NCBI GenBank assembly: GCA_009773805.1
Contig: WTXA01000004.1
Span: 295 to 64,294, forward strand
Direction: 5' to 3'
Origin: Fusobacteriota bacterium
Lineage (GTDB): Bacteria > Bacillota > TC1
Length of the DNA: 64,000 nt
Positions 38,905 to 47,139 of the stretch are shown here, one piece after another; within the stretch, counting starts at the first letter, position 1, and each line of letters starts with the position of its first letter. Both the position numbers and the translations under genes were made by a program. The notes beneath the pieces were generated by a model, which saw nothing but the letters and a program-made list of their open reading frames with translations, had not been told where the DNA came from and did not search any database.

Positions 38905-39405
38905 TTATTTACTATTTAACAGCTCTTTAATATATTCTTCTAAGCTCTTCCCTTCAATCTTAACTTCTCCAGTTTCAAAATCAGTGGCCAACTTAAAGAA
39001 ATTTATGAAAAGCTGATTATCCGCCCAATAATAGGTCTCCAAATGACCAGGGATGAAATTGATAGTTAAATCCTTGTCAACTAATGATTCAAACTGTTCA
39101 CCATTCAATTGCTTGATTGGTGTCATCATACCCATAGTTATTCCCAAATCTTCAAGCACCCACATATTATTATTCCAAAAGCGCCCTTCAGCCTTTGTCT
39201 TAACTGAAAGTATTTCCCTATTTGTAATGCTACTCAAAACTTTTCTAATAGAATCACTAGTAAACTCATCATTAAACAAAACTTTAAGTTCTTTTCTACT
39301 AGCTAATTCAGACAAAAATATATCACTAACCTTTTCCCTATCTGCAGTAGCTTGCCAGTAATAGATAAATAACTCTAAGACCTCTGTATTTATTTTAACA
39401 TTCAT
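38905..39405 (-). CDS. Hypothetical protein, translationally coupled to asnB
   Basis: 166-aa ORF with no motif I recognise. Its start overlaps the asnB stop by 4 nt (ATGA). Confidence 0.6.
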   Translation of the reverse strand: MNVKINTEVLELFIYYWQATADREKVSDIFLSELASRKELKVLFNDEFTSDSIRKVLSSITNREILSVKTKAEGRFWNNNMWVLEDLGITMGMMTPIKQLNGEQFESLVDKDLTINFIPGHLETYYWADNQLFINFFKLATDFETGEVKIEGKSLEEYIKELLNSK

Positions 39406-41243
39406 ACCTTTACACTCTCCTTTTCAAAAAAGACTTCATACCATAACAAGAAAATATAGATAGTCCATATTTTCCTACTATTGTCTTTCTTCCCTTTATA
39501 GTGTCCATCTAAAAGATCCATTAATTGATCATAAACAAAAAGCTCTTTAGCTATTGGTTTATTGAAATAGCCTTTAACCTTTTCATAATACTCCTTCTCC
39601 TTTAACCATACTCTAATCGGTACAGGAAATCCAAGTTTTTTCTTATCTGCTACTTTTTTAGGTATGACCCTTCTTGCCGCAAGTCTTAAAGCATACTTGG
39701 TATTTTCTTTATTCACCTTATACTTCAATGGTATAGTTCTGGCCAATTTGAAAACTTCCTTATCCAAGAAAGGCACTCTAAGTTCAAGAGAATGAGCCAT
39801 ACTCATTTTATCAGCCTTAAGTAATATATCTCCTATCAACCAGGTATTAATATCTACTAATTGCATCTTAGTAGTGTCATCATAATCTTTACCTAGTTCG
39901 AAGAAATCCTTAGTTACCATATTTGTGGCTGGTGCAGTAGTCTTAATCCTTAAAAGTTTTTTTCTTTCCTTGTTTGAAAATACTTTTGCGTTGCCTATAT
40001 ATCTATCTTCTATCCTTTGCCCAGCTCTTTGTAAAAAAGATTTACCTTTTATGTCAGGTAAAATATCGGCGATAGCACCAATTAATTTTCTCAATCCATA
40101 TGGAATTTTACTAAAACCAGCCAAACTAAATGGTTCTCTATAAATATTATAGCCACCAAATAATTCATCGGCTCCTTCACCAGATAAAACCACTTTAACG
40201 TAATTACTTGCAAGTTCACTAACGAAATACAAGGCTATAGCTGATGGATCAGCCAGGGGTTCATCCATATGATATTGAACTTTTGATAGTGAATCCCAAT
40301 ATTCCTTATCACCAATCAATTTGCTTTCATTTTTTATGCCTATTAACTGTGATAGTTCTTTTGCATACTCTACTTCATTATATTTATCATAATTGAATCC
40401 AACAGTGAAAGTCTTATCACCTTGGAATACTGTAGCAGCATAACTTGAATCTATACCACTAGAAAGGAAGGAACCTACCTCTACATCACTGATTTTATGA
40501 GCTTTTATCGAATCGATAAAAACCTCTTCAATTTTATCAACTAAAGGTTCAAGCTCCATATTCTCATCATTATCAAAAGTGGCTTGAAAATATCTATTAA
40601 TATCTATTTCCCCATCTTTGTATATCATATAGTGTCCTGGAGTTAATTTGTATATTCCCTTAAAGAAAGTTTCAGGCAAACTTGAATACTGGAAGCTTAA
40701 ATAGCTTTCCAAAGCATCAAAATTTAATTCCTTATTGAAATCTGGGTAGTCAAGAAAACTTTTTATTTCTGAACCGAAAAGCAGGCTATTACCAGCCATT
40801 CCATAATATAGAGGTTTGATACCAAAATAGTCTCGTGCTATAAACAAGCTTTGATCTTTCTTATTATATATTGTAAAGGAAAACATACCTCTTAATTTAT
40901 TTAGCATATCCTTTCCATATTGTTCATATAAATGTATTAAAACCTCTGAATCAGAATGGGTGTAGAAAACGTGCCCTTGATCTATCAAATCAGCCTTAAG
41001 TTCTTGATAATTATATATTTCTCCATTAAAAAACAGTACTAAGTTTTTATCTTCATTGAAAATTGGTTGCATACCATCTTCTAGACCAATAATACTTAGT
41101 CTTCTAAAGCCAATAGCAACAAATTCGTCTATATAGACACCTTCGCTGTCTGGTCCCCTATGGATTATTCTATCCATCATCTTTTTGATGATTGGTTCTT
41201 TTGTAACAATATTACTATTTACAAAGCCTACATAACCACACAA
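39402..41243 (-). CDS. asnB: Asparagine synthase (glutamine-hydrolysing)
   Basis: N-terminal MCG nucleophile (Ntn amidotransferase). PP-loop SGGIDSS-like FLSSGIDSS. 613 aa. Confidence 0.9.
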   Translation of the reverse strand: MCGYVGFVNSNIVTKEPIIKKMMDRIIHRGPDSEGVYIDEFVAIGFRRLSIIGLEDGMQPIFNEDKNLVLFFNGEIYNYQELKADLIDQGHVFYTHSDSEVLIHLYEQYGKDMLNKLRGMFSFTIYNKKDQSLFIARDYFGIKPLYYGMAGNSLLFGSEIKSFLDYPDFNKELNFDALESYLSFQYSSLPETFFKGIYKLTPGHYMIYKDGEIDINRYFQATFDNDENMELEPLVDKIEEVFIDSIKAHKISDVEVGSFLSSGIDSSYAATVFQGDKTFTVGFNYDKYNEVEYAKELSQLIGIKNESKLIGDKEYWDSLSKVQYHMDEPLADPSAIALYFVSELASNYVKVVLSGEGADELFGGYNIYREPFSLAGFSKIPYGLRKLIGAIADILPDIKGKSFLQRAGQRIEDRYIGNAKVFSNKERKKLLRIKTTAPATNMVTKDFFELGKDYDDTTKMQLVDINTWLIGDILLKADKMSMAHSLELRVPFLDKEVFKLARTIPLKYKVNKENTKYALRLAARRVIPKKVADKKKLGFPVPIRVWLKEKEYYEKVKGYFNKPIAKELFVYDQLMDLLDGHYKGKKDNSRKIWTIYIFLLWYEVFFEKESVKV

Positions 41244-41364
41244 ATGATAATCCTCCTTTTTTATAACTACTTCATTATATCTTAATTTTAAAAAAATAGG
41301 AACATCAATTGGATTTTTAAAGGTATTCTGTGATATAATCTACCTAAGTTAGGAGGGTTGTAGA

Positions 41365-41511
41365 ATGACAAATAAACATATAATTACATTAGCTAAACCT
41401 TTGCTTCAAGAAACTAAGGAAACAGGAGGCTGTGGGAATTGCCAATCAGCGTGCCAGTCAGCTTGCAAGACTTCTTGCACTGTAGCAAATCAATTGTGCA
41501 TTAATGAATAA
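41365..41511 (+). CDS. SCIFF (six cysteines in forty-five residues) ribosomal peptide precursor
   Basis: 48-aa ORF absent from the track: MTNKHIITLAKPLLQETKETGGCGNCQSACQSACKTSCTVANQLCINE. AGGAGGG RBS 7 nt upstream. Matches the SCIFF (TIGR03973) pattern GGCGxCQxSCQSACKTSCTVxNQ. Confidence 0.9.
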   Translation: MTNKHIITLAKPLLQETKETGGCGNCQSACQSACKTSCTVANQLCINE

Positions 41512-41520
41512 ATAACCCCT

Positions 41521-41543
41521 AAAGGTCCTTCGAGGGCCTTTTT
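41521..41543 (+). terminator. Partial terminator/attenuator hairpin between precursor and maturase
   Basis: AAAGGUCC-UUCGA-GGGCCUUU (one G-U pair) running into a U-tract. Located 10 nt after the precursor stop. Confidence 0.5.
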
Positions 41544-41557
41544 ACTTGGAGGAAAAT

Positions 41558-42925
41558 ATGAAAGACATTAAAATAATAGAAAAGAACGGGATGAATATCA
41601 TCCTCGATGTAAATAGTGGATCCATCCATATTTTTGATGAGTTAGGCAAAAATACTCTACTAAAATATATCAACAATGAAGATATTAAAGATAATGATGA
41701 ATTAAATGTCTTGAAAGAAATCAATATCCTCATAAATGAAGGTAGCCTACTTTCTAAAGATAGTGGTGAATTACCTAAAGTAGTAAATAAAAGTCTGAAG
41801 TCAATATGTTTGAATGTAGCACATATCTGCAATCTAGCTTGTCCTTATTGCTTTGCATCAGGTGGCAGCTATAAGGGCAATGAAGCCTTAATGAGTCTTG
41901 AAGTTGGTAAGAAAGCCATCGATTTCCTGTTTGAAAACAGCAAAGGTCGCAAAATTGTCGAAGTGGATTTTTTCGGTGGTGAACCACTACTAAATTTCCA
42001 ACTAATCAAGGATGTTGTTGCTTATGGTGAAGAAAAAGCCAAGGAGTTAAATAAATCCATCAAGTGGTCAATGACAACTAATGGTGTACTTTTAGATGAA
42101 AAAGTTTGTAAGTTTTTGAAGGATCATAATGTAGGTACAGTCTTAAGTATAGATGGTCGCAAAGAAATTCATGATAAATATAGATATTTCAAGGATAAGT
42201 CAGGCAGTTATGACAAGATTGTTAAAAACTATCAAAGATTCAAGGAATATAGTGATGACTATGTAGCTAGAGGTACTTATACTAAAGGTAATCTTGATTT
42301 CTATAATGATATTGAAGTCTTAAAGTCACTTGGTTTTGAACATTTATCAATGGAACCCGTCATAGGAGGAGACTTAACCTATGATGATCTTGAAACTATA
42401 AGAGAAAGTTACGATATATTAGCAGATAAATATTTAAAATGGCTATCTGAAGATAAACCTTTGGACTTTTTTCATTTTAATATTAATTTAAAGGGTGGTC
42501 CTTGTATTTATAAGCGTATTACAGCTTGTGGTGCAGGTTTTGAATATCTGGCAATAACACCTATTGGTGATATCTTTCCATGTCATCAATTAATAGAAAA
42601 TAAAGACTATCTCCTAGGGAACATTATGATAGAAACCTACAAGGATGAACTTAGTAAAGTTTTCCAAGATATAAATATATATACTAAGGAAAAGTGTAGC
42701 AATTGTTGGGCTCGGTTCTATTGTAGTGGTGGTTGTCATAGTAACAACTTAAAATATGGTGGAGACTTAAGTAATCCCGATGATTTAAGTTGTGAATTAC
42801 AAAAAATAAGATTAGAATCAGCAATTTATGTTCAAGCTCAAAAATTACTTAGAGAATATTCTAAAAATAACTTTAAAACAAGTGATGAAATCACTAAGGA
42901 AAAGATAATAGATATGTTAAAATAA
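41558..42925 (+). CDS. SCIFF radical SAM/SPASM thioether-forming maturase
   Basis: CNLACPYC radical SAM cluster motif. C-terminal SPASM cysteines (CGAG...C, CSNCWARFYCSGGC). Start set to the ATG after GGAGG; the track ORF starts at an upstream TTG. Confidence 0.88.
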   Translation: MKDIKIIEKNGMNIILDVNSGSIHIFDELGKNTLLKYINNEDIKDNDELNVLKEINILINEGSLLSKDSGELPKVVNKSLKSICLNVAHICNLACPYCFASGGSYKGNEALMSLEVGKKAIDFLFENSKGRKIVEVDFFGGEPLLNFQLIKDVVAYGEEKAKELNKSIKWSMTTNGVLLDEKVCKFLKDHNVGTVLSIDGRKEIHDKYRYFKDKSGSYDKIVKNYQRFKEYSDDYVARGTYTKGNLDFYNDIEVLKSLGFEHLSMEPVIGGDLTYDDLETIRESYDILADKYLKWLSEDKPLDFFHFNINLKGGPCIYKRITACGAGFEYLAITPIGDIFPCHQLIENKDYLLGNIMIETYKDELSKVFQDINIYTKEKCSNCWARFYCSGGCHSNNLKYGGDLSNPDDLSCELQKIRLESAIYVQAQKLLREYSKNNFKTSDEITKEKIIDMLK

Positions 42926-42995
42926 TAGTATTAAGTATACAATTAATATTATATAGTAATTGATAAAATTTAATAAGAAGATTAGGAGTGATAAT

Positions 42996-43910
42996 ATGCT
43001 AGATGTAACAATTATAGGAGCAGGTCCTGCTGGAATGACAGCTGCCCTTTATGCTTTAAGAAGTGGTCTTAATGTTTGTGTAATGGAACAAGGAGCACCT
43101 GGTGGACAATTATTAAAAACAGAAAAAATAGATAATTATCCAGGATTTGCTGATGGGGTTCTTGGTATGGAGCTTGCTACCAATATGTTTACGCAAATAA
43201 GTTCTTTTGCTAATTTTTCCCTGATTAATGAAACTGCTAAAAAAATAAGAAGAAAGCCTAACGGTTTTACAATTGATATTTCAACAGGCACAGTTGAAAC
43301 TAAGTCTGTTATTATAGCCACAGGAGGATATCCAAGAACTTTAGATATACCTGGTGAAAGTGAGTATTCTGGTAAAGGTGTTTCTTATTGTGCAATATGT
43401 GATGGTTTCTTCTTTAAAGATAAGATTGTTTCTGTTATTGGTGGCGGTAATACAGCTCTTGAAGATGCGGTGTACCTTGCTAGTATTGCCAAGGAAGTAT
43501 ATTTAATTCATAGAAGAAAAGCTTTTAGAGGTAGTAAAATATTAGTTGATAGATTGAAGGAACATAAAAATGTACATTTAGTTTTGGAGAAAGTTCCTGT
43601 GGAAATCAAAGGAGAAACAAAGGTTTCTGAAATAGTTATTAAGGATACTGAAACAGAAGAAATTACTAGTCTTTTTGTAAACGGAGTTTTCTTGGCAATA
43701 GGTCAAATAATGAATAGTGATTTTGTAAAGGATATATTAGCAATAGATGATACAGGTCATATAGTTGTTGATGAAAAGATGGAATCTGTTATTCCCGGTC
43801 TATTTGCTTGTGGAGATATTATTTCCAAGGATTTGAGACAGGTATCTACAGCTGTTGGTGATGGTGCTATCGCCGGACAAATGGCTTATGAATATTTAAG
43901 CAAACTGTAA
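42996..43910 (+). CDS. trxB: Thioredoxin-disulfide reductase
   Basis: GAGPAG FAD motif, redox-active CAIC, GGGNTA NADPH motif. Start trimmed to MLDVTIIGAG after AGGAG. Confidence 0.9.
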   Translation: MLDVTIIGAGPAGMTAALYALRSGLNVCVMEQGAPGGQLLKTEKIDNYPGFADGVLGMELATNMFTQISSFANFSLINETAKKIRRKPNGFTIDISTGTVETKSVIIATGGYPRTLDIPGESEYSGKGVSYCAICDGFFFKDKIVSVIGGGNTALEDAVYLASIAKEVYLIHRRKAFRGSKILVDRLKEHKNVHLVLEKVPVEIKGETKVSEIVIKDTETEEITSLFVNGVFLAIGQIMNSDFVKDILAIDDTGHIVVDEKMESVIPGLFACGDIISKDLRQVSTAVGDGAIAGQMAYEYLSKL

Positions 43911-43924
43911 AAGAGGTGGATAAT

Positions 43925-44983
43925 ATGAAGGATTATTTAAGACTCATTTTAGCTGGTATTATTGGGGCATTGATTGCAATTGTCCTTTATACCGGTATTA
44001 TTTCCATTAATGAAAGATATCAATTGGCAAATAACAATGAAGGCGGAGCTGTAAATGAAGTCTTGATAGGTGAAAATATATCAATACCCGATATTGTCAG
44101 CGAGACCTCTCCTTCTGTAGTTCAAATTTCTAAAAGTTCAGGTCTAAGTTCTTCATCATTAGGCTCTGGGGTAATTATTGATGCTGCTTTGGGTTATGTG
44201 GTGACTAATTTTCATGTGGTAGGTGATGATGGTGATTTAACCGTTACACTTCTTGATGGCAGAGTAACTAAAGCAACAAGAATAGGTGGAGATGCTGATT
44301 TAGATATTTCTGTAATTAAATTAGAAAACACAATAAATCTGACCTCGATCGAACTTGGTGATTCTAGTGTTTTAAAAGCAGGACAGATGGCTATTGCAAT
44401 TGGTTCACCTCTTAGTTCTGAATTAGCAAATACTGTAACTGTTGGTGTAATAAGTGCAATTTCAAGAGAGCTTACCTATACTGCACCTAGTGGTAATGTG
44501 GTAGTAGTTAGAGTACTACAGACTGATGCTGCGATAAATCCAGGAAATAGTGGTGGTGCTTTGATTAATTCTTTAGGGCAACTTATTGGTATTAATAGCA
44601 TCAAGGTAGCACAAGCTGGTGTTGAAGGATTAGGTTTTGCAATTCCAATTAATGATGTTAAGCCTATAATTGAAGAGATTATTAGAACTGGTACAGTGGT
44701 TCACCCTCAGTTAGGTGTTAGTAATCTTACTAATATCACAAAGGATATGTCAGATTACTACAAAGTTCCTGAAGGTGTTTTAGTTGGAGATGTTAGTGAT
44801 GGTTCTAATGCTAGTAAAGCTGGTATGAGAGCTAATGATATTATTGTAGCTATTAATCAAACTGAAATAAAGACATCTGCTCAATTAAGATCTGCAATGT
44901 ATAGATTGGATTTTGGTGATGACTTAAGAATAAAATTATATAGAGACAGTGGTTATTTAACCCTTTATGTAGTTGTTAAATAG
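43925..44983 (+). CDS. htrA: HtrA/DegP-family serine protease with one PDZ domain
   Basis: N-terminal TM segment. Catalytic His (TNFHVV) and Ser (GNSGGAL). C-terminal PDZ. Confidence 0.88.
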   Translation: MKDYLRLILAGIIGALIAIVLYTGIISINERYQLANNNEGGAVNEVLIGENISIPDIVSETSPSVVQISKSSGLSSSSLGSGVIIDAALGYVVTNFHVVGDDGDLTVTLLDGRVTKATRIGGDADLDISVIKLENTINLTSIELGDSSVLKAGQMAIAIGSPLSSELANTVTVGVISAISRELTYTAPSGNVVVVRVLQTDAAINPGNSGGALINSLGQLIGINSIKVAQAGVEGLGFAIPINDVKPIIEEIIRTGTVVHPQLGVSNLTNITKDMSDYYKVPEGVLVGDVSDGSNASKAGMRANDIIVAINQTEIKTSAQLRSAMYRLDFGDDLRIKLYRDSGYLTLYVVVK

Positions 44984-44997
44984 TAATATAAATAAAG

Positions 44998-45031
44998 AAC
45001 TCCTCATTTCAAAATATTGAAATGAGGAGTT
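44998..45031 (+). terminator. Intrinsic terminator after htrA
   Basis: 15-bp perfect stem aactcctcatttcaa/ttgaaatgaggagtt with a 4-nt loop. The T-tract is short. Confidence 0.6.
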
Positions 45032-45180
45032 TCATTATATATTATTATGTAATGATTATATAGAATAGTAAAATATTTGAATAATTCAACCTATCAGCTA
45101 GGTTGTATTGTCTATCTTAAACTTTAAGACAAAGTATTATTCTAAGAAGTATATACTTAAAATCATTAATATAATACTAA

Positions 45181-47139
45181 TTAATAAGACAAAGCTCTAT
45201 TTCCTATAGTATTCCAAGCCGTATTGAATGCTGAATTATTTATATATGCATTTTTTTTACCAGTCCAAGGGTCATTATAATAAAACCCATCATTATTATA
45301 ACCTGTTATTACAACAGCATGAAGATAAAAACCACTTAATCTAGCCCAAACTAAAACAGGTTTGCCTTGATTGATACTATTTTTTATCCCAATGGTTCCA
45401 CTACCTGTCAAATTAACTGCTGATCCTGCATATTTTTCCATTATATTCATTAATGCAGGAGGAAAAATGGTATAACCATATGAATTAAAAGGAGATCCAA
45501 CAAACCCTAAATCCGGATTAGTTTGATGATAAGGTATTTCATTAGCAAGTTGAATCTTCGTCACATTTACCCCAAGATAATTTAATATCATAGCTAGAGA
45601 AGTCACCTCACAACCGGTTGGCAATTCTGGTCTTTGACTTATTATAGGTACATTTAAAGGGTTTGTTAAAACAATATAACTTCTCAAATTATCAGGTGCC
45701 GCTGCTCCCTTTTCCACCAAAACTACTTTCATTGCTTCTATTCTATACCCATATCCTGACGTGCCTGCATTTTCTCCGTTTTTTGCCCAGCCCATCCAAC
45801 CTATATTTTGCACATGAACACTGTAATATGTTGGCTGATATTGCTCCTTCAAGACCAATATTTATTCTCTCTACTCTTTTGTTAAGCTCTCCACTTTCTG
45901 TGCCATTAACCTTCCAGTCCTGCCATCCACTTCCTTCTATATATGATCTATATTTTATGCTGCTACCAGCCATGTCTCCTTCAGTCATTTTTGTTCCAAG
46001 TTTTAACATCCAGGCTTCTAGTCTTAAAGACATACCTGTTATTCCTGATATTGCTCCATCTGTTTTCCAGGGTTGATATCCATAGGATTGTACAGAACTC
46101 TTATATGCCACATTAACTTTACTTAAATCTACATATGCTCCAGTAGTAGCTCCTGGTGCCGCTGCTCCCTTAGTTACCAATACAACTTTCATTGCTTCTA
46201 TCCTATAGTCGTATCCTGATGTACCAGCGTTTTCTCCATTTTTAGCCCAGCCCATCCAGCCTATATTTTGCACATGAACACTGTAATATACATCATAGTT
46301 GGCTGCTATTGGTCCTTCTAGACTTATGTTAATTGTCTCTACTCTTTTGTTAAGCTCTCCACTTTCTGTGCCATTAACCTTCCAGTCTTGCCATCCACTT
46401 CCTTCAACATATGAACGATATTTTATATTGCTACCTGCCAAATCTCCACTGTTCATCCCTGTTCCAAGTTTCAACATCCAGGCTTCCATTCTTAAGGACA
46501 TACCTGTTATTCCTGATATTGCTCCATCTATTTTCCAGGGTTGATATCCATAGGATTGTACAGAACTCTTATATGCCACATTAACTTTACTTAAATCTAC
46601 ATATGCTCCAGTATTAGCTCCTGGTGCTGCTGCTCCCTTGGTTACCAATACAACTTTCATTGCTTCTATCCTATAATCGTATCCTGATGTACCAGCGTTT
46701 TCTCCATTTTTAGCCCATCCCATCCAACCTATATCTTGCACATGAACACTGTAATATACATCATATTTGGCTGCTATTGCTCCTTCAAGACTTATGTTAA
46801 TTGTCTCTACTCTTTTGTTAAGCTCTCCACTTTGTGTGCCATTAACCTTCCAGTCCTGCCATCCACTTCCTTCTATATATGATCTATATTTTATGCTACT
46901 TCCAGCCATGTCTCCTTCAGTCACTTTTGTACCAAGTTTCAACATGACATACCTGTTATTCCTGCAATCTCTCCATCACTAACCCATGGCAAATAACCTT
47001 TTGTTTGCATATAGTTACTATAAATTACACCATCGTTGCTTAAATCGACTATAGCTGCAACAGGTTTACTAACAATAATTGGCAATATCAATATTCCAAT
47101 TAGCACTATCAATCTGTAGATTATTTTTTTATTTCTCAT
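45181..47139 (-). pseudogene. Secreted ChW-repeat protein with C-terminal C39-like (YvpB-type) cysteine peptidase domain, disrupted by two frameshifting deletions
   Basis: Three overlapping ORFs in different frames. (a) Signal peptide MRNKKIIYRLIVLIGILILPIIVSKPVAA. (b) ChW repeats (YSVHVQNIGWMGWAKNGENAGTSGYDYRIEAMKVVL). (c) Peptidase_C39_2-like domain (PTGCEVTSLAMIL...LHAVVITGY). Compared with the sister repeat units, 19 nt are missing at 46945/46946 and 8 nt at 45829/45830. Confidence 0.7.
45745..46945. repeat. Tandem 468-bp (156-codon) repeat units, about 2.6 copies, each encoding three ChW modules
   Basis: Near-identical protein blocks recur every 156 aa. Spurious plus-strand ORFs at 46299 and 46767 are exactly 468 nt apart with near-identical sequence. 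Confidence 0.85.

What the first reader, a model, noticed from the sequence alone, without database searches (positions are those of the whole stretch)
41365..42925. Unannotated SCIFF six-cysteine peptide with its radical SAM/SPASM maturase
A 48-codon ORF below the track's size cutoff encodes MTNKHIITLAKPLLQETKETGGCGNCQSACQSACKTSCTVANQLCINE. It has six Cys in the C-terminal 26 residues and a strong RBS. A leaky-looking terminator hairpin follows (41521-41543), and then a radical SAM enzyme with CNLACPYC and SPASM cysteine clusters. This matches the described SCIFF precursor/maturase pair (TIGR03973/TIGR03974). Homologous maturases such as CteB and Tte1186 install Cys-Thr thioether links. The biological role of SCIFF peptides is still unknown. 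No dedicated exporter or protease is adjacent. The nearest neighbours are trxB and htrA, which may be co-transcribed.
Basis: partly seen in the sequence, partly recalled or inferred. Interest (0 to 1): 0.6.

Follow-up and report, generated by a model that had tools for sequence, protein, structure and literature searches.

The report
Ordinary SCIFF peptide and its maturase
This is a genuine but entirely typical copy of the SCIFF six-cysteine peptide gene and its radical SAM cross-linking enzyme, a pair that most Clostridia-type bacteria carry once per genome.

Summary
The observation and the interpretation both hold. The ORF at 41365-41511 (+) encodes the quoted 48-residue peptide. It scores 72 bits against TIGR03973 (cut-off 50) and 72.9 bits against PF13165. 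The next gene, 41558-42925 (+), scores 498.8 bits against the SCIFF maturase model TIGR03974 (cut-off 425). It stays below the "not_ScfB" exception model. It aligns end to end with the crystallised ranthipeptide synthase CteB (5WGG, E 1e-115), and all 11 cluster cysteines match. The peptide fits the 80% consensus of 36 relatives and is under strong purifying selection. Each gene occurs once in this 1.68 Mb genome. SCIFF passes its cut-off in 164 of 201 sampled genomes of the phylum. A weak hairpin with a T run (-10.7 kcal/mol) lies between the two genes. A similar element occurs in 39 of 67 SCIFF loci, against 1.3 expected by chance, which fits attenuation. The genes scfA-scfB-trxB-htrA look like one transcription unit that ends at a strong terminator (44997-45032). 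NCBI already names a >=90% identical cluster mate "six-cysteine ranthipeptide SCIFF". The one mildly new point is an old gene order in Clostridia, scfAB-(M23 peptidase)-trxB-(MBL)-htrA. Interest is low.

The parts
41331..41339 (+). Candidate extended -10 promoter element, TGaTATAAT
   Evidence: Read directly from the sequence. The TGnTATAAT element is kept at the same distance from the start codon in genus relatives L004-L008. It was not found by the -35/-10 consensus scan. This is an inference and no transcript data are available.
41351..41357 (+). Ribosome-binding site AGGAGGG of scfA
   Evidence: Lies 7 nt upstream of the ATG at 41365 and is conserved in relatives.
41365..41511 (+). scfA, the SCIFF precursor peptide (48 aa; leader about residues 1-20, GG at 21-22, Cys-rich core at 23-48)
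   Evidence: TIGR03973 at 72 bits (cut-off 50) and PF13165 at 72.9 bits (cut-off 27). It matches the 80% consensus KHI.T..L..GGCG.CQ..CQSACKTSCTV.NQ.C of 36 relatives. It is under purifying selection and is single copy in the genome.
41521..41543 (+). Weak intrinsic-terminator-like hairpin with a T run between scfA and scfB (probable attenuator)
   Evidence: 9-bp stem, 3-nt loop, -10.7 kcal/mol. Within the genus the stem is invariant while the loop varies, and family members L057 and L030 carry longer, different stems. A hairpin with a T run is present in 39 of 67 SCIFF loci, against 1.3 expected from shuffles.
41558..42925 (+). scfB, the radical SAM/SPASM SCIFF maturase (ranthipeptide synthase), 455 aa
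   Evidence: TIGR03974 at 498.8 bits (cut-off 425). The exception model NF040492 not_ScfB scores 435 against 855, so it is not met. PF04055, PF13353 and PF13186 match. CteB 5WGG aligns at E 1.2e-115 over residues 9-429. The motifs are CX3CX2C at 91-98, CX12GX4C at 324-342 and CX2CX5CX3C at 380-393, plus Cys316 and Cys412.
42996..43910 (+). trxB, thioredoxin-disulfide reductase, probably co-transcribed
   Evidence: TIGR01292 at 358.7 bits (cut-off 343). It is the only copy in the genome over that cut-off. It lies 70 nt after scfB here and 10-37 nt after it in most family relatives (76 nt in L027), with no terminator between.
43916..44983 (+). htrA, membrane-anchored HtrA/Do-type serine protease with a PDZ domain, probably the last gene of the unit
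   Evidence: The best NCBIfam matches are the Do/HtrA serine-protease models TIGR02037 (273 bits, cut-off 416) and NF047968 (244 bits, cut-off 470), both below their curated cut-offs. The Pfam domains Trypsin_2 and PDZ_2 pass. It lies 5 nt after trxB, and the same order is found in all family relatives with enough sequence.
44997..45032 (.). Strong bidirectional terminator that closes the scfA-htrA unit and the convergent ChW/C39_2 gene
   Evidence: 16-bp stem found on both strands, -22.0 kcal/mol.

Best explanation
This is the organism's single, canonical SCIFF (ScfA/ScfB) ranthipeptide locus.

Inferred mechanism, by homology with CteA/CteB and Tte1186a/Tte1186:
1. The N-terminal RRE-type domain of ScfB binds the conserved leader of the 48-residue precursor (the KHIxT motif).
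2. The CX3CX2C [4Fe-4S] cluster reductively cleaves SAM to a 5'-deoxyadenosyl radical.
3. That radical abstracts a hydrogen from a threonine side chain in the core.
4. A cysteine thiolate, held by an auxiliary SPASM cluster, closes a non-alpha (C-gamma) thioether. By alignment this is most likely Cys34 to Thr36 or Thr39. Cys34 is the fourth Cys and corresponds to Cys32 of CteA.

Inferred expression:
- Transcription probably starts at an extended -10 promoter 26 nt upstream of scfA.
- The weak hairpin with a T run after scfA probably stops part of the transcripts. That would give more precursor than enzyme mRNA.
- Read-through continues into scfB and probably into the housekeeping trxB and htrA, up to the strong terminator at 44997-45032.

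Shown here: gene identity, motif completeness, single copy, purifying selection, conservation of the hairpin, and gene order. Inferred: the chemistry, the cross-link position, the attenuation and the co-transcription.
For: - Both equivalog HMMs are over their cut-offs, and the Pfam models SCIFF, Radical_SAM and SPASM match.
- The maturase aligns full length with CteB, and every cluster cysteine is matched.
- The peptide is identical to the family consensus at all conserved positions.
- Both genes are single copy in the genome.
- SCIFF is present over its cut-off in 36 of 41 relatives and in 164 of 201 genomes of the phylum, one match each. [quoted passage not shown]
- Of 177 nucleotide differences in the family, 146 are at third codon positions.
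- A hairpin with a T run lies between scfA and scfB in 39 of 67 loci, against 1.3 expected, and the stem sequences are unrelated in distant genomes.
- The order scfA-scfB-trxB-htrA is kept in all 8 other genomes of the family, with intergenic gaps of 10-76 nt (mostly 10-37) and no terminator.
- The chemistry of the homologues is taken from PMC8326336.
Against:
- The hairpin is weak. The fold z-score is -0.93, the generic scan did not list it, and no compensatory base changes are seen within the genus.
- The acceptor residue, and how many of the six cysteines become cross-linked, are disputed even for the characterised homologues (PMC8326336).
- The 70-nt scfB-trxB spacer in this genome could hold a promoter that the scan missed.
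Confidence: 0.93

Rival explanations
1. The SCIFF pair is functionally integrated with its neighbours rather than merely next to them. Under this reading, scfA-scfB-trxB-htrA is a dedicated module. In other Clostridia the module would be scfAB-M23 peptidase-trxB-MBL hydrolase-htrA. The extracytoplasmic protease (HtrA, or the Gly-Gly-specific M23 enzyme) would remove the leader at the conserved GG. Thioredoxin reductase would keep the remaining five cysteines reduced, or would respond to them. That would tie SCIFF to thiol-redox or envelope homeostasis.
For: - Sampling one genome per family gave 50 families outside the window's own with at least 4 kb of sequence after scfB.
- In 21 of them a LysM+G5+M23 peptidase gene follows scfB on the same strand.
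- In 9 of them trxB follows within about 2.6 kb on the same strand.
- MBL hydrolase and/or htrA follow in several.
- Chance adjacency of one particular gene would be about 0.1% per genome.
- In the window's family the gaps between the genes are 5-76 nt.
Against: - The trxB is the genome's only thioredoxin reductase over the cut-off, so it is a housekeeping gene.
- About half of the sampled families have none of these neighbours.
- The own genome keeps its three M23 genes on another contig.
- Conserved order among relatives can be inherited synteny with no shared function.
- M23/LysM/G5 and HtrA proteins have well-established cell-wall and protein-quality-control roles (general knowledge).
- None of the papers I read mentions such a link.
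Confidence: 0.1
2. The small ORF is a chance or decayed reading frame, and the radical SAM enzyme is an orphan ScfB-like maturase (the NF040492 type) that acts on some other substrate.
For: - ScfB-related orphan maturases exist as a curated exception family, and this protein scores 435 bits against that model.
- The peptide is not in the NCBI gene calls for this exact sequence.
Against: - The 435 bits are far below that model's 855-bit cut-off, while TIGR03974 is passed.
- The peptide passes both SCIFF models.
- It has a strong RBS.
- It is invariant in its core across a family with about 25% nucleotide divergence, and the changes are almost all synonymous.
Confidence: 0.01

Closest known systems
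CteA/CteB of Clostridium (Acetivibrio) thermocellum (PDB 5WGG, 5WHY): SCIFF precursor and ranthipeptide synthase (product thermocellin)
   Same: The maturase aligns over residues 9-429 at E 1.2e-115. It has the same three-domain layout (RRE, radical SAM barrel, SPASM), and all 3 + 8 cluster cysteines match. The peptide shares the core CQSACKTSCTV.NQ.C and the GGCG motif. The precursor gene lies directly upstream of the maturase gene.
   Different: The maturase is only about 40-45% identical to those of the distant relatives sampled. It has a 26-residue C-terminal tail beyond the end of the CteB alignment. The peptide is 48 residues with positions shifted by +2 (Cys34/Thr36/Thr39 for Cys32/Thr34/Thr37), and it has Asn rather than the common Glu between the first two cysteines. 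No biochemistry exists for this copy.
Tte1186a/Tte1186 of Caldanaerobacter subterraneus (the first SCIFF maturase studied in vitro)
   Same: It belongs to the same TIGR03973/TIGR03974 families, with a single Cys-to-Thr thioether reported from the fourth cysteine (PMC8326336).
   Different: It was not compared by sequence here. The relationship rests on shared family membership and the literature.
Other radical SAM/SPASM peptide maturases: PapB (freyrasin), QhpD, the nif11-peptide maturase, CcpM
   Same: The same superfamily and SPASM architecture. They give partial HMM scores of 298, 235, 259 and 197 bits.
   Different: All of these scores are below the respective curated cut-offs (340, 453, 519, 500). 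Their substrates differ from the SCIFF peptide.

Membership tests
SCIFF precursor (ScfA; TIGR03973 / PF13165) | Score over the curated equivalog cut-off of the family model | tested here: met
   TIGR03973 at 72 bits against 50. PF13165 at 72.9 bits against 27.
SCIFF precursor (ScfA; TIGR03973 / PF13165) | About 45 residues with six cysteines in the C-terminal half, and the conserved core GGCGxCQxxCQSACKTSCTVxNQxC | tested here: met
   48 residues with Cys at 23, 26, 30, 34, 38 and 45. It is identical to the 80% consensus of 36 relatives at every conserved column.
SCIFF precursor (ScfA; TIGR03973 / PF13165) | Encoded next to (within 500 bp of) a radical SAM maturase of the ScfB family | tested here: met
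   There are 46 nt between the scfA stop and the scfB start, on the same strand. The criterion is taken from PMC5300114.
SCIFF maturase (ScfB; TIGR03974) | Score over the curated equivalog cut-off, and not captured by the ScfB-related orphan exception model | tested here: met
   TIGR03974 at 498.8 bits against 425. NF040492 at 435 bits against 855.
SCIFF maturase (ScfB; TIGR03974) | Radical SAM CX3CX2C motif plus the SPASM seven-cysteine motif for two auxiliary [4Fe-4S] clusters | tested here: met
   C91-x3-C95-x2-C98, C324-x12-G-x4-C342, C380-x2-C383-x5-C389-x3-C393 and C412, plus C316. All are aligned to cysteines of CteB.
SCIFF maturase (ScfB; TIGR03974) | N-terminal RRE (peptide-recognition) domain | tested here: inconclusive
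   Residues 9-80 align with the N-terminal region of CteB, which forms its RRE (PMC8326336). No structure was predicted and no RRE-specific model was run.
Ranthipeptide (radical non-alpha thioether peptide) | A Cys sulfur to C-beta or C-gamma thioether installed in the peptide | not testable with these tools
   This needs co-expression followed by MS/MS or NMR. It is inferred only from homologues (PMC8326336).

The most novel reading that the evidence does not exclude
SCIFF may not be a free-standing RiPP pair. It may be the head of an ancient Clostridia gene block, scfA-scfB-(LysM/G5/M23 Gly-Gly endopeptidase)-trxB-(MBL hydrolase)-htrA. Within that block, the M23 or HtrA protease would be the long-missing leader peptidase that cuts at the invariant GG. 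The sole thioredoxin reductase would be functionally coupled to the peptide's remaining cysteines. The window's family would carry the minimal form, scfA-scfB-trxB-htrA, as one operon.
Probability: 0.08. Interest if true: 0.6.

Novelty: already known. Interest (0 to 1): 0.12.

Why it matters
For this genome it matters only as an annotation fix. A 48-codon gene below size cut-offs should be called scfA, and the next gene scfB. The family has been described since 2011. It has curated equivalog models and a crystal structure, and it occurs once per genome in most Clostridia. Another copy therefore teaches little.

Two by-products may be of modest use to people working on the unsolved biology of SCIFF. 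First, an attenuator-like hairpin between precursor and maturase recurs across the family. Second, the neighbourhood (M23 peptidase, trxB, MBL hydrolase, htrA) recurs in many families. That gives concrete candidate partners to knock out in a tractable Clostridium.

Tried and rejected
- Rfam scan of 41000-45300: there was no family match. The only hit was a sub-threshold PyrG-leader match on the terminator at 44990-45068 (28.8 against 65 bits).
- The generic promoter/terminator scan found no -35/-10 promoter for scfA and did not list the scfA-scfB hairpin. The hairpin was recovered only by folding and by my own looser scanner.
- A second SCIFF or ScfB copy in the genome: none. The only other TIGR03974 hit is a 31-bit generic radical SAM match on contig C1.
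- The convergent ChW/Peptidase_C39_2 gene (45181-46945, minus strand) as a SCIFF leader protease: rejected. It is on the opposite strand behind a strong terminator. It is split into two ORFs. It is seen next to scf only in this genus. Its domain is the C39_2 (YvpB-like) type, not the transporter-linked C39 type.
- The antisense ORFs overlapping scfB (41519-41629 and 41542-41832, minus strand): treated as spurious, because scfB fills the region with a 499-bit family match.
- Earlier notes of this scan held nothing on this locus.

Full report
**Observation.** The window holds a 48-codon ORF at 41365-41511 (+) that encodes MTNKHIITLAKPLLQETKETGGCGNCQSACQSACKTSCTVANQLCINE.
- Its six cysteines are at residues 23, 26, 30, 34, 38 and 45.
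- AGGAGGG lies at 41351-41357, 7 nt before the ATG. A TGaTATAAT extended -10 element lies at 41331-41339.
- After the stop codon comes a 9-bp hairpin (arms 41521-41529 and 41533-41541) whose 3' arm runs into TTTTT. It folds at -10.7 kcal/mol.
- A GGAGG at 41548-41552 precedes the ATG at 41558 of a 455-residue ORF that ends at 42925.

**Identity.** Both genes pass their curated family models.
- The peptide scores 72 bits against NCBIfam TIGR03973, "six-cysteine ranthipeptide SCIFF" (equivalog, cut-off 50). It scores 72.9 bits against Pfam PF13165 (cut-off 27).
- The enzyme scores 498.8 bits against TIGR03974, "thioether cross-link-forming SCIFF peptide maturase" (cut-off 425).
- The enzyme scores 435 bits against the exception model NF040492 for ScfB-related orphan maturases, whose cut-off is 855, so it is not one of those.
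- Every other radical SAM/SPASM maturase family (PapB, nif11, QhpD, CcpM and others) is below its cut-off.
- Pfam sees the Radical_SAM, Fer4_12 and SPASM domains.
- The best solved structure is CteB of C. thermocellum (5WGG/5WHY), at E 1.2e-115 and aligned over residues 9-429.
- The CX3CX2C motif (C91, C95, C98) and the SPASM cysteines (C316, C324, C342, C380, C383, C389, C393, C412) all align to cysteines of CteB.

**Is the small ORF real?** Eight other genomes of the same family carry the ORF.
- Of 177 nucleotide differences to the window, 146 are at third codon positions.
- At 86% nucleotide identity there are 20 synonymous codon changes and 1 non-synonymous change.
- The core from G21 to C45 is nearly invariant, with a single N25S change in L057, even at about 75% nucleotide identity.
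- An alignment of 36 SCIFF peptides from relatives gives the 80% consensus KHI.T..L..GGCG.CQ..CQSACKTSCTV.NQ.C. The window's peptide matches it at every conserved position.
- This is a textbook member with no unusual residue. The only small variation is Asn25, where many relatives have Glu.

**Distribution.**
- The window's genome has 1.68 Mb in 4 contigs and is 98.5% complete. It has exactly one SCIFF gene and one ScfB gene.
- SCIFF passes the cut-off in 36 of 41 nearest relatives and in 164 of 201 evenly sampled genomes of the phylum, always as one match.
- The 14 control genomes outside the group have none.
- This matches the literature. SCIFF is widespread in Clostridia (PMC8326336) and occurs at most once per species (PMC13673991). 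[quoted passage not shown]
- The closest public relatives are uncultured Bacillota and "Eubacteriales" metagenome-assembled genomes.
- The exact peptide is already in ENA/Logan gene calls. NCBI names a cluster mate at >=90% identity "six-cysteine ranthipeptide SCIFF".

**Hairpin between the genes.** On its own the hairpin is unimpressive. The z-score of the 56-nt stretch is -0.93, and the generic scan missed it. Comparison with other loci makes it credible.
- Within the genus the stem GGTCC/GGGCC and the T run are invariant, while the loop varies (TCG, ATA, ATTAA, ATAAA, TCA).
- Two more distant family members have longer stems of different sequence (L057, L030).
- Unrelated, often much stronger, GC-rich hairpins with T runs sit at the same place in distant genomes, for example L010 and L012.
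- With one simple scanner, 39 of 67 SCIFF loci have such an element between scfA and scfB. For loci outside the family the figure is 32 of 59. Base shuffles of the same spacers give 1.3 expected.
- The relatives are not independent, but the sequences are not homologous.
- The reading I prefer is a partial terminator that sets a high precursor-to-enzyme transcript ratio, as is common for RiPP operons (general knowledge). This is an inference.

**Neighbours and transcription unit.**
- Downstream lie trxB at 42996-43910 (TIGR01292, 358.7 bits against 343) and htrA at 43916-44983 (Trypsin_2 + PDZ). The htrA NCBIfam matches are Do/HtrA models below their cut-offs.
- Both are on the same strand. The gaps are 70 nt and 5 nt, with no terminator between.
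- A 16-bp, -22 kcal/mol bidirectional terminator follows at 44997-45032.
- Upstream, asnB and a TDE2712-family gene are transcribed divergently.
- All eight other genomes of the family keep asnB<- ->scfA-scfB-trxB-htrA. The scfB-trxB gaps are 10-76 nt, mostly 10-37.
- A four-gene transcript is therefore likely.
- This trxB is the only copy in the genome over the family cut-off, so it is the housekeeping enzyme, not a dedicated paralogue.

**Wider synteny (by-product).** I fetched 8-9 kb around scfA in one genome from each of many families.
- 50 families outside the window's own had at least 4 kb of sequence after scfB.
- In 21 of them a LysM+G5+Peptidase_M23 gene follows scfB on the same strand.
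- In 9 of them trxB follows within about 2.6 kb, always after the M23 gene.
- An MBL-fold hydrolase and/or htrA come next in several. In a few, a molybdopterin oxidoreductase is inserted.
- The window's family thus looks like a shortened form of an old block, scfAB-M23-trxB-MBL-htrA. Its three M23 genes lie in tandem on another contig.
- This can be inherited gene order without shared function, and about half of the families have none of these neighbours.
- I give the functional reading (a protease of the block as the missing leader peptidase at the invariant GG, or TrxB coupled to the free cysteines) roughly 8-10%.

**Mechanism.** The mechanism is inferred by homology with Tte1186 and CteB (PMC8326336).
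- The leader binds the N-terminal RRE.
- The radical SAM cluster generates a 5'-deoxyadenosyl radical.
- A Thr side-chain hydrogen is abstracted, and the fourth cysteine is joined to it as a non-alpha thioether.
- In this peptide that is Cys34, joined to Thr39 (the in vitro result for homologues) or to Thr36 C-gamma (the E. coli co-expression result).
- How many of the six cysteines react in vivo is open for the whole family. So are how the leader is removed, whether the peptide is exported, and what it does.
- The only functional report is a quorum-sensing and sporulation phenotype of knockouts in solventogenic clostridia (Chen et al. 2020, cited in PMC8326336 and PMC8102284).

**Limits.**
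- No structure prediction was run, because sequence evidence was already decisive.
- The RRE domain is supported only by alignment to CteB.

**Verdict.** This is an ordinary copy of a well-described, near-universal Clostridia RiPP pair, so it is already known in kind and of low interest. The attenuator statistics and the recurring M23-trxB-htrA neighbourhood are minor leads.

Noticed in passing
window 42996-44983, and loci L031-L034, L044, L045, L070, L071, L074, L083, L091 (downstream of scfB): There is a recurring gene order after scfB across Clostridia families: a LysM+G5+M23 peptidase in 21 of 50 families, then trxB in 9 of 50, then an MBL-fold hydrolase and/or htrA. The window's family has the short form scfAB-trxB-htrA. 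I did not find this discussed in the papers I read.
   Followed up: partly
window 45181-46945 (-): A convergent gene with seven or more ChW repeats and a Peptidase_C39_2 domain is split into two overlapping ORFs (45743-46945 and 45181-45858), probably by a frameshift. It shares the bidirectional terminator at 44997-45032 with htrA.
   Followed up: partly
G000:C3:37380-39517 (own genome, another contig): Three Peptidase_M23 genes lie in tandem (open frames of 399, 369 and 256 aa). They are the only M23 matches in the genome.
   Followed up: no
window 38905-41243 (-): asnB (TIGR01536, 504 bits) overlaps by ATGA a TDE2712-family gene (NF051430, 196 bits). The pair is divergent from scfA and is conserved with the scf locus throughout the family. 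AsnB-type enzymes also act as lasso-peptide cyclases, but here the score for that model is far below its cut-off (195 against 525).
   Followed up: partly
L037, L039, L054, L073 (downstream of scfB): In four families a molybdopterin oxidoreductase gene of about 660-690 aa (Molybdop_Fe4S4 + Molybdopterin + Molydop_binding) sits directly after scfB, ahead of the M23 or MBL genes.
   Followed up: no
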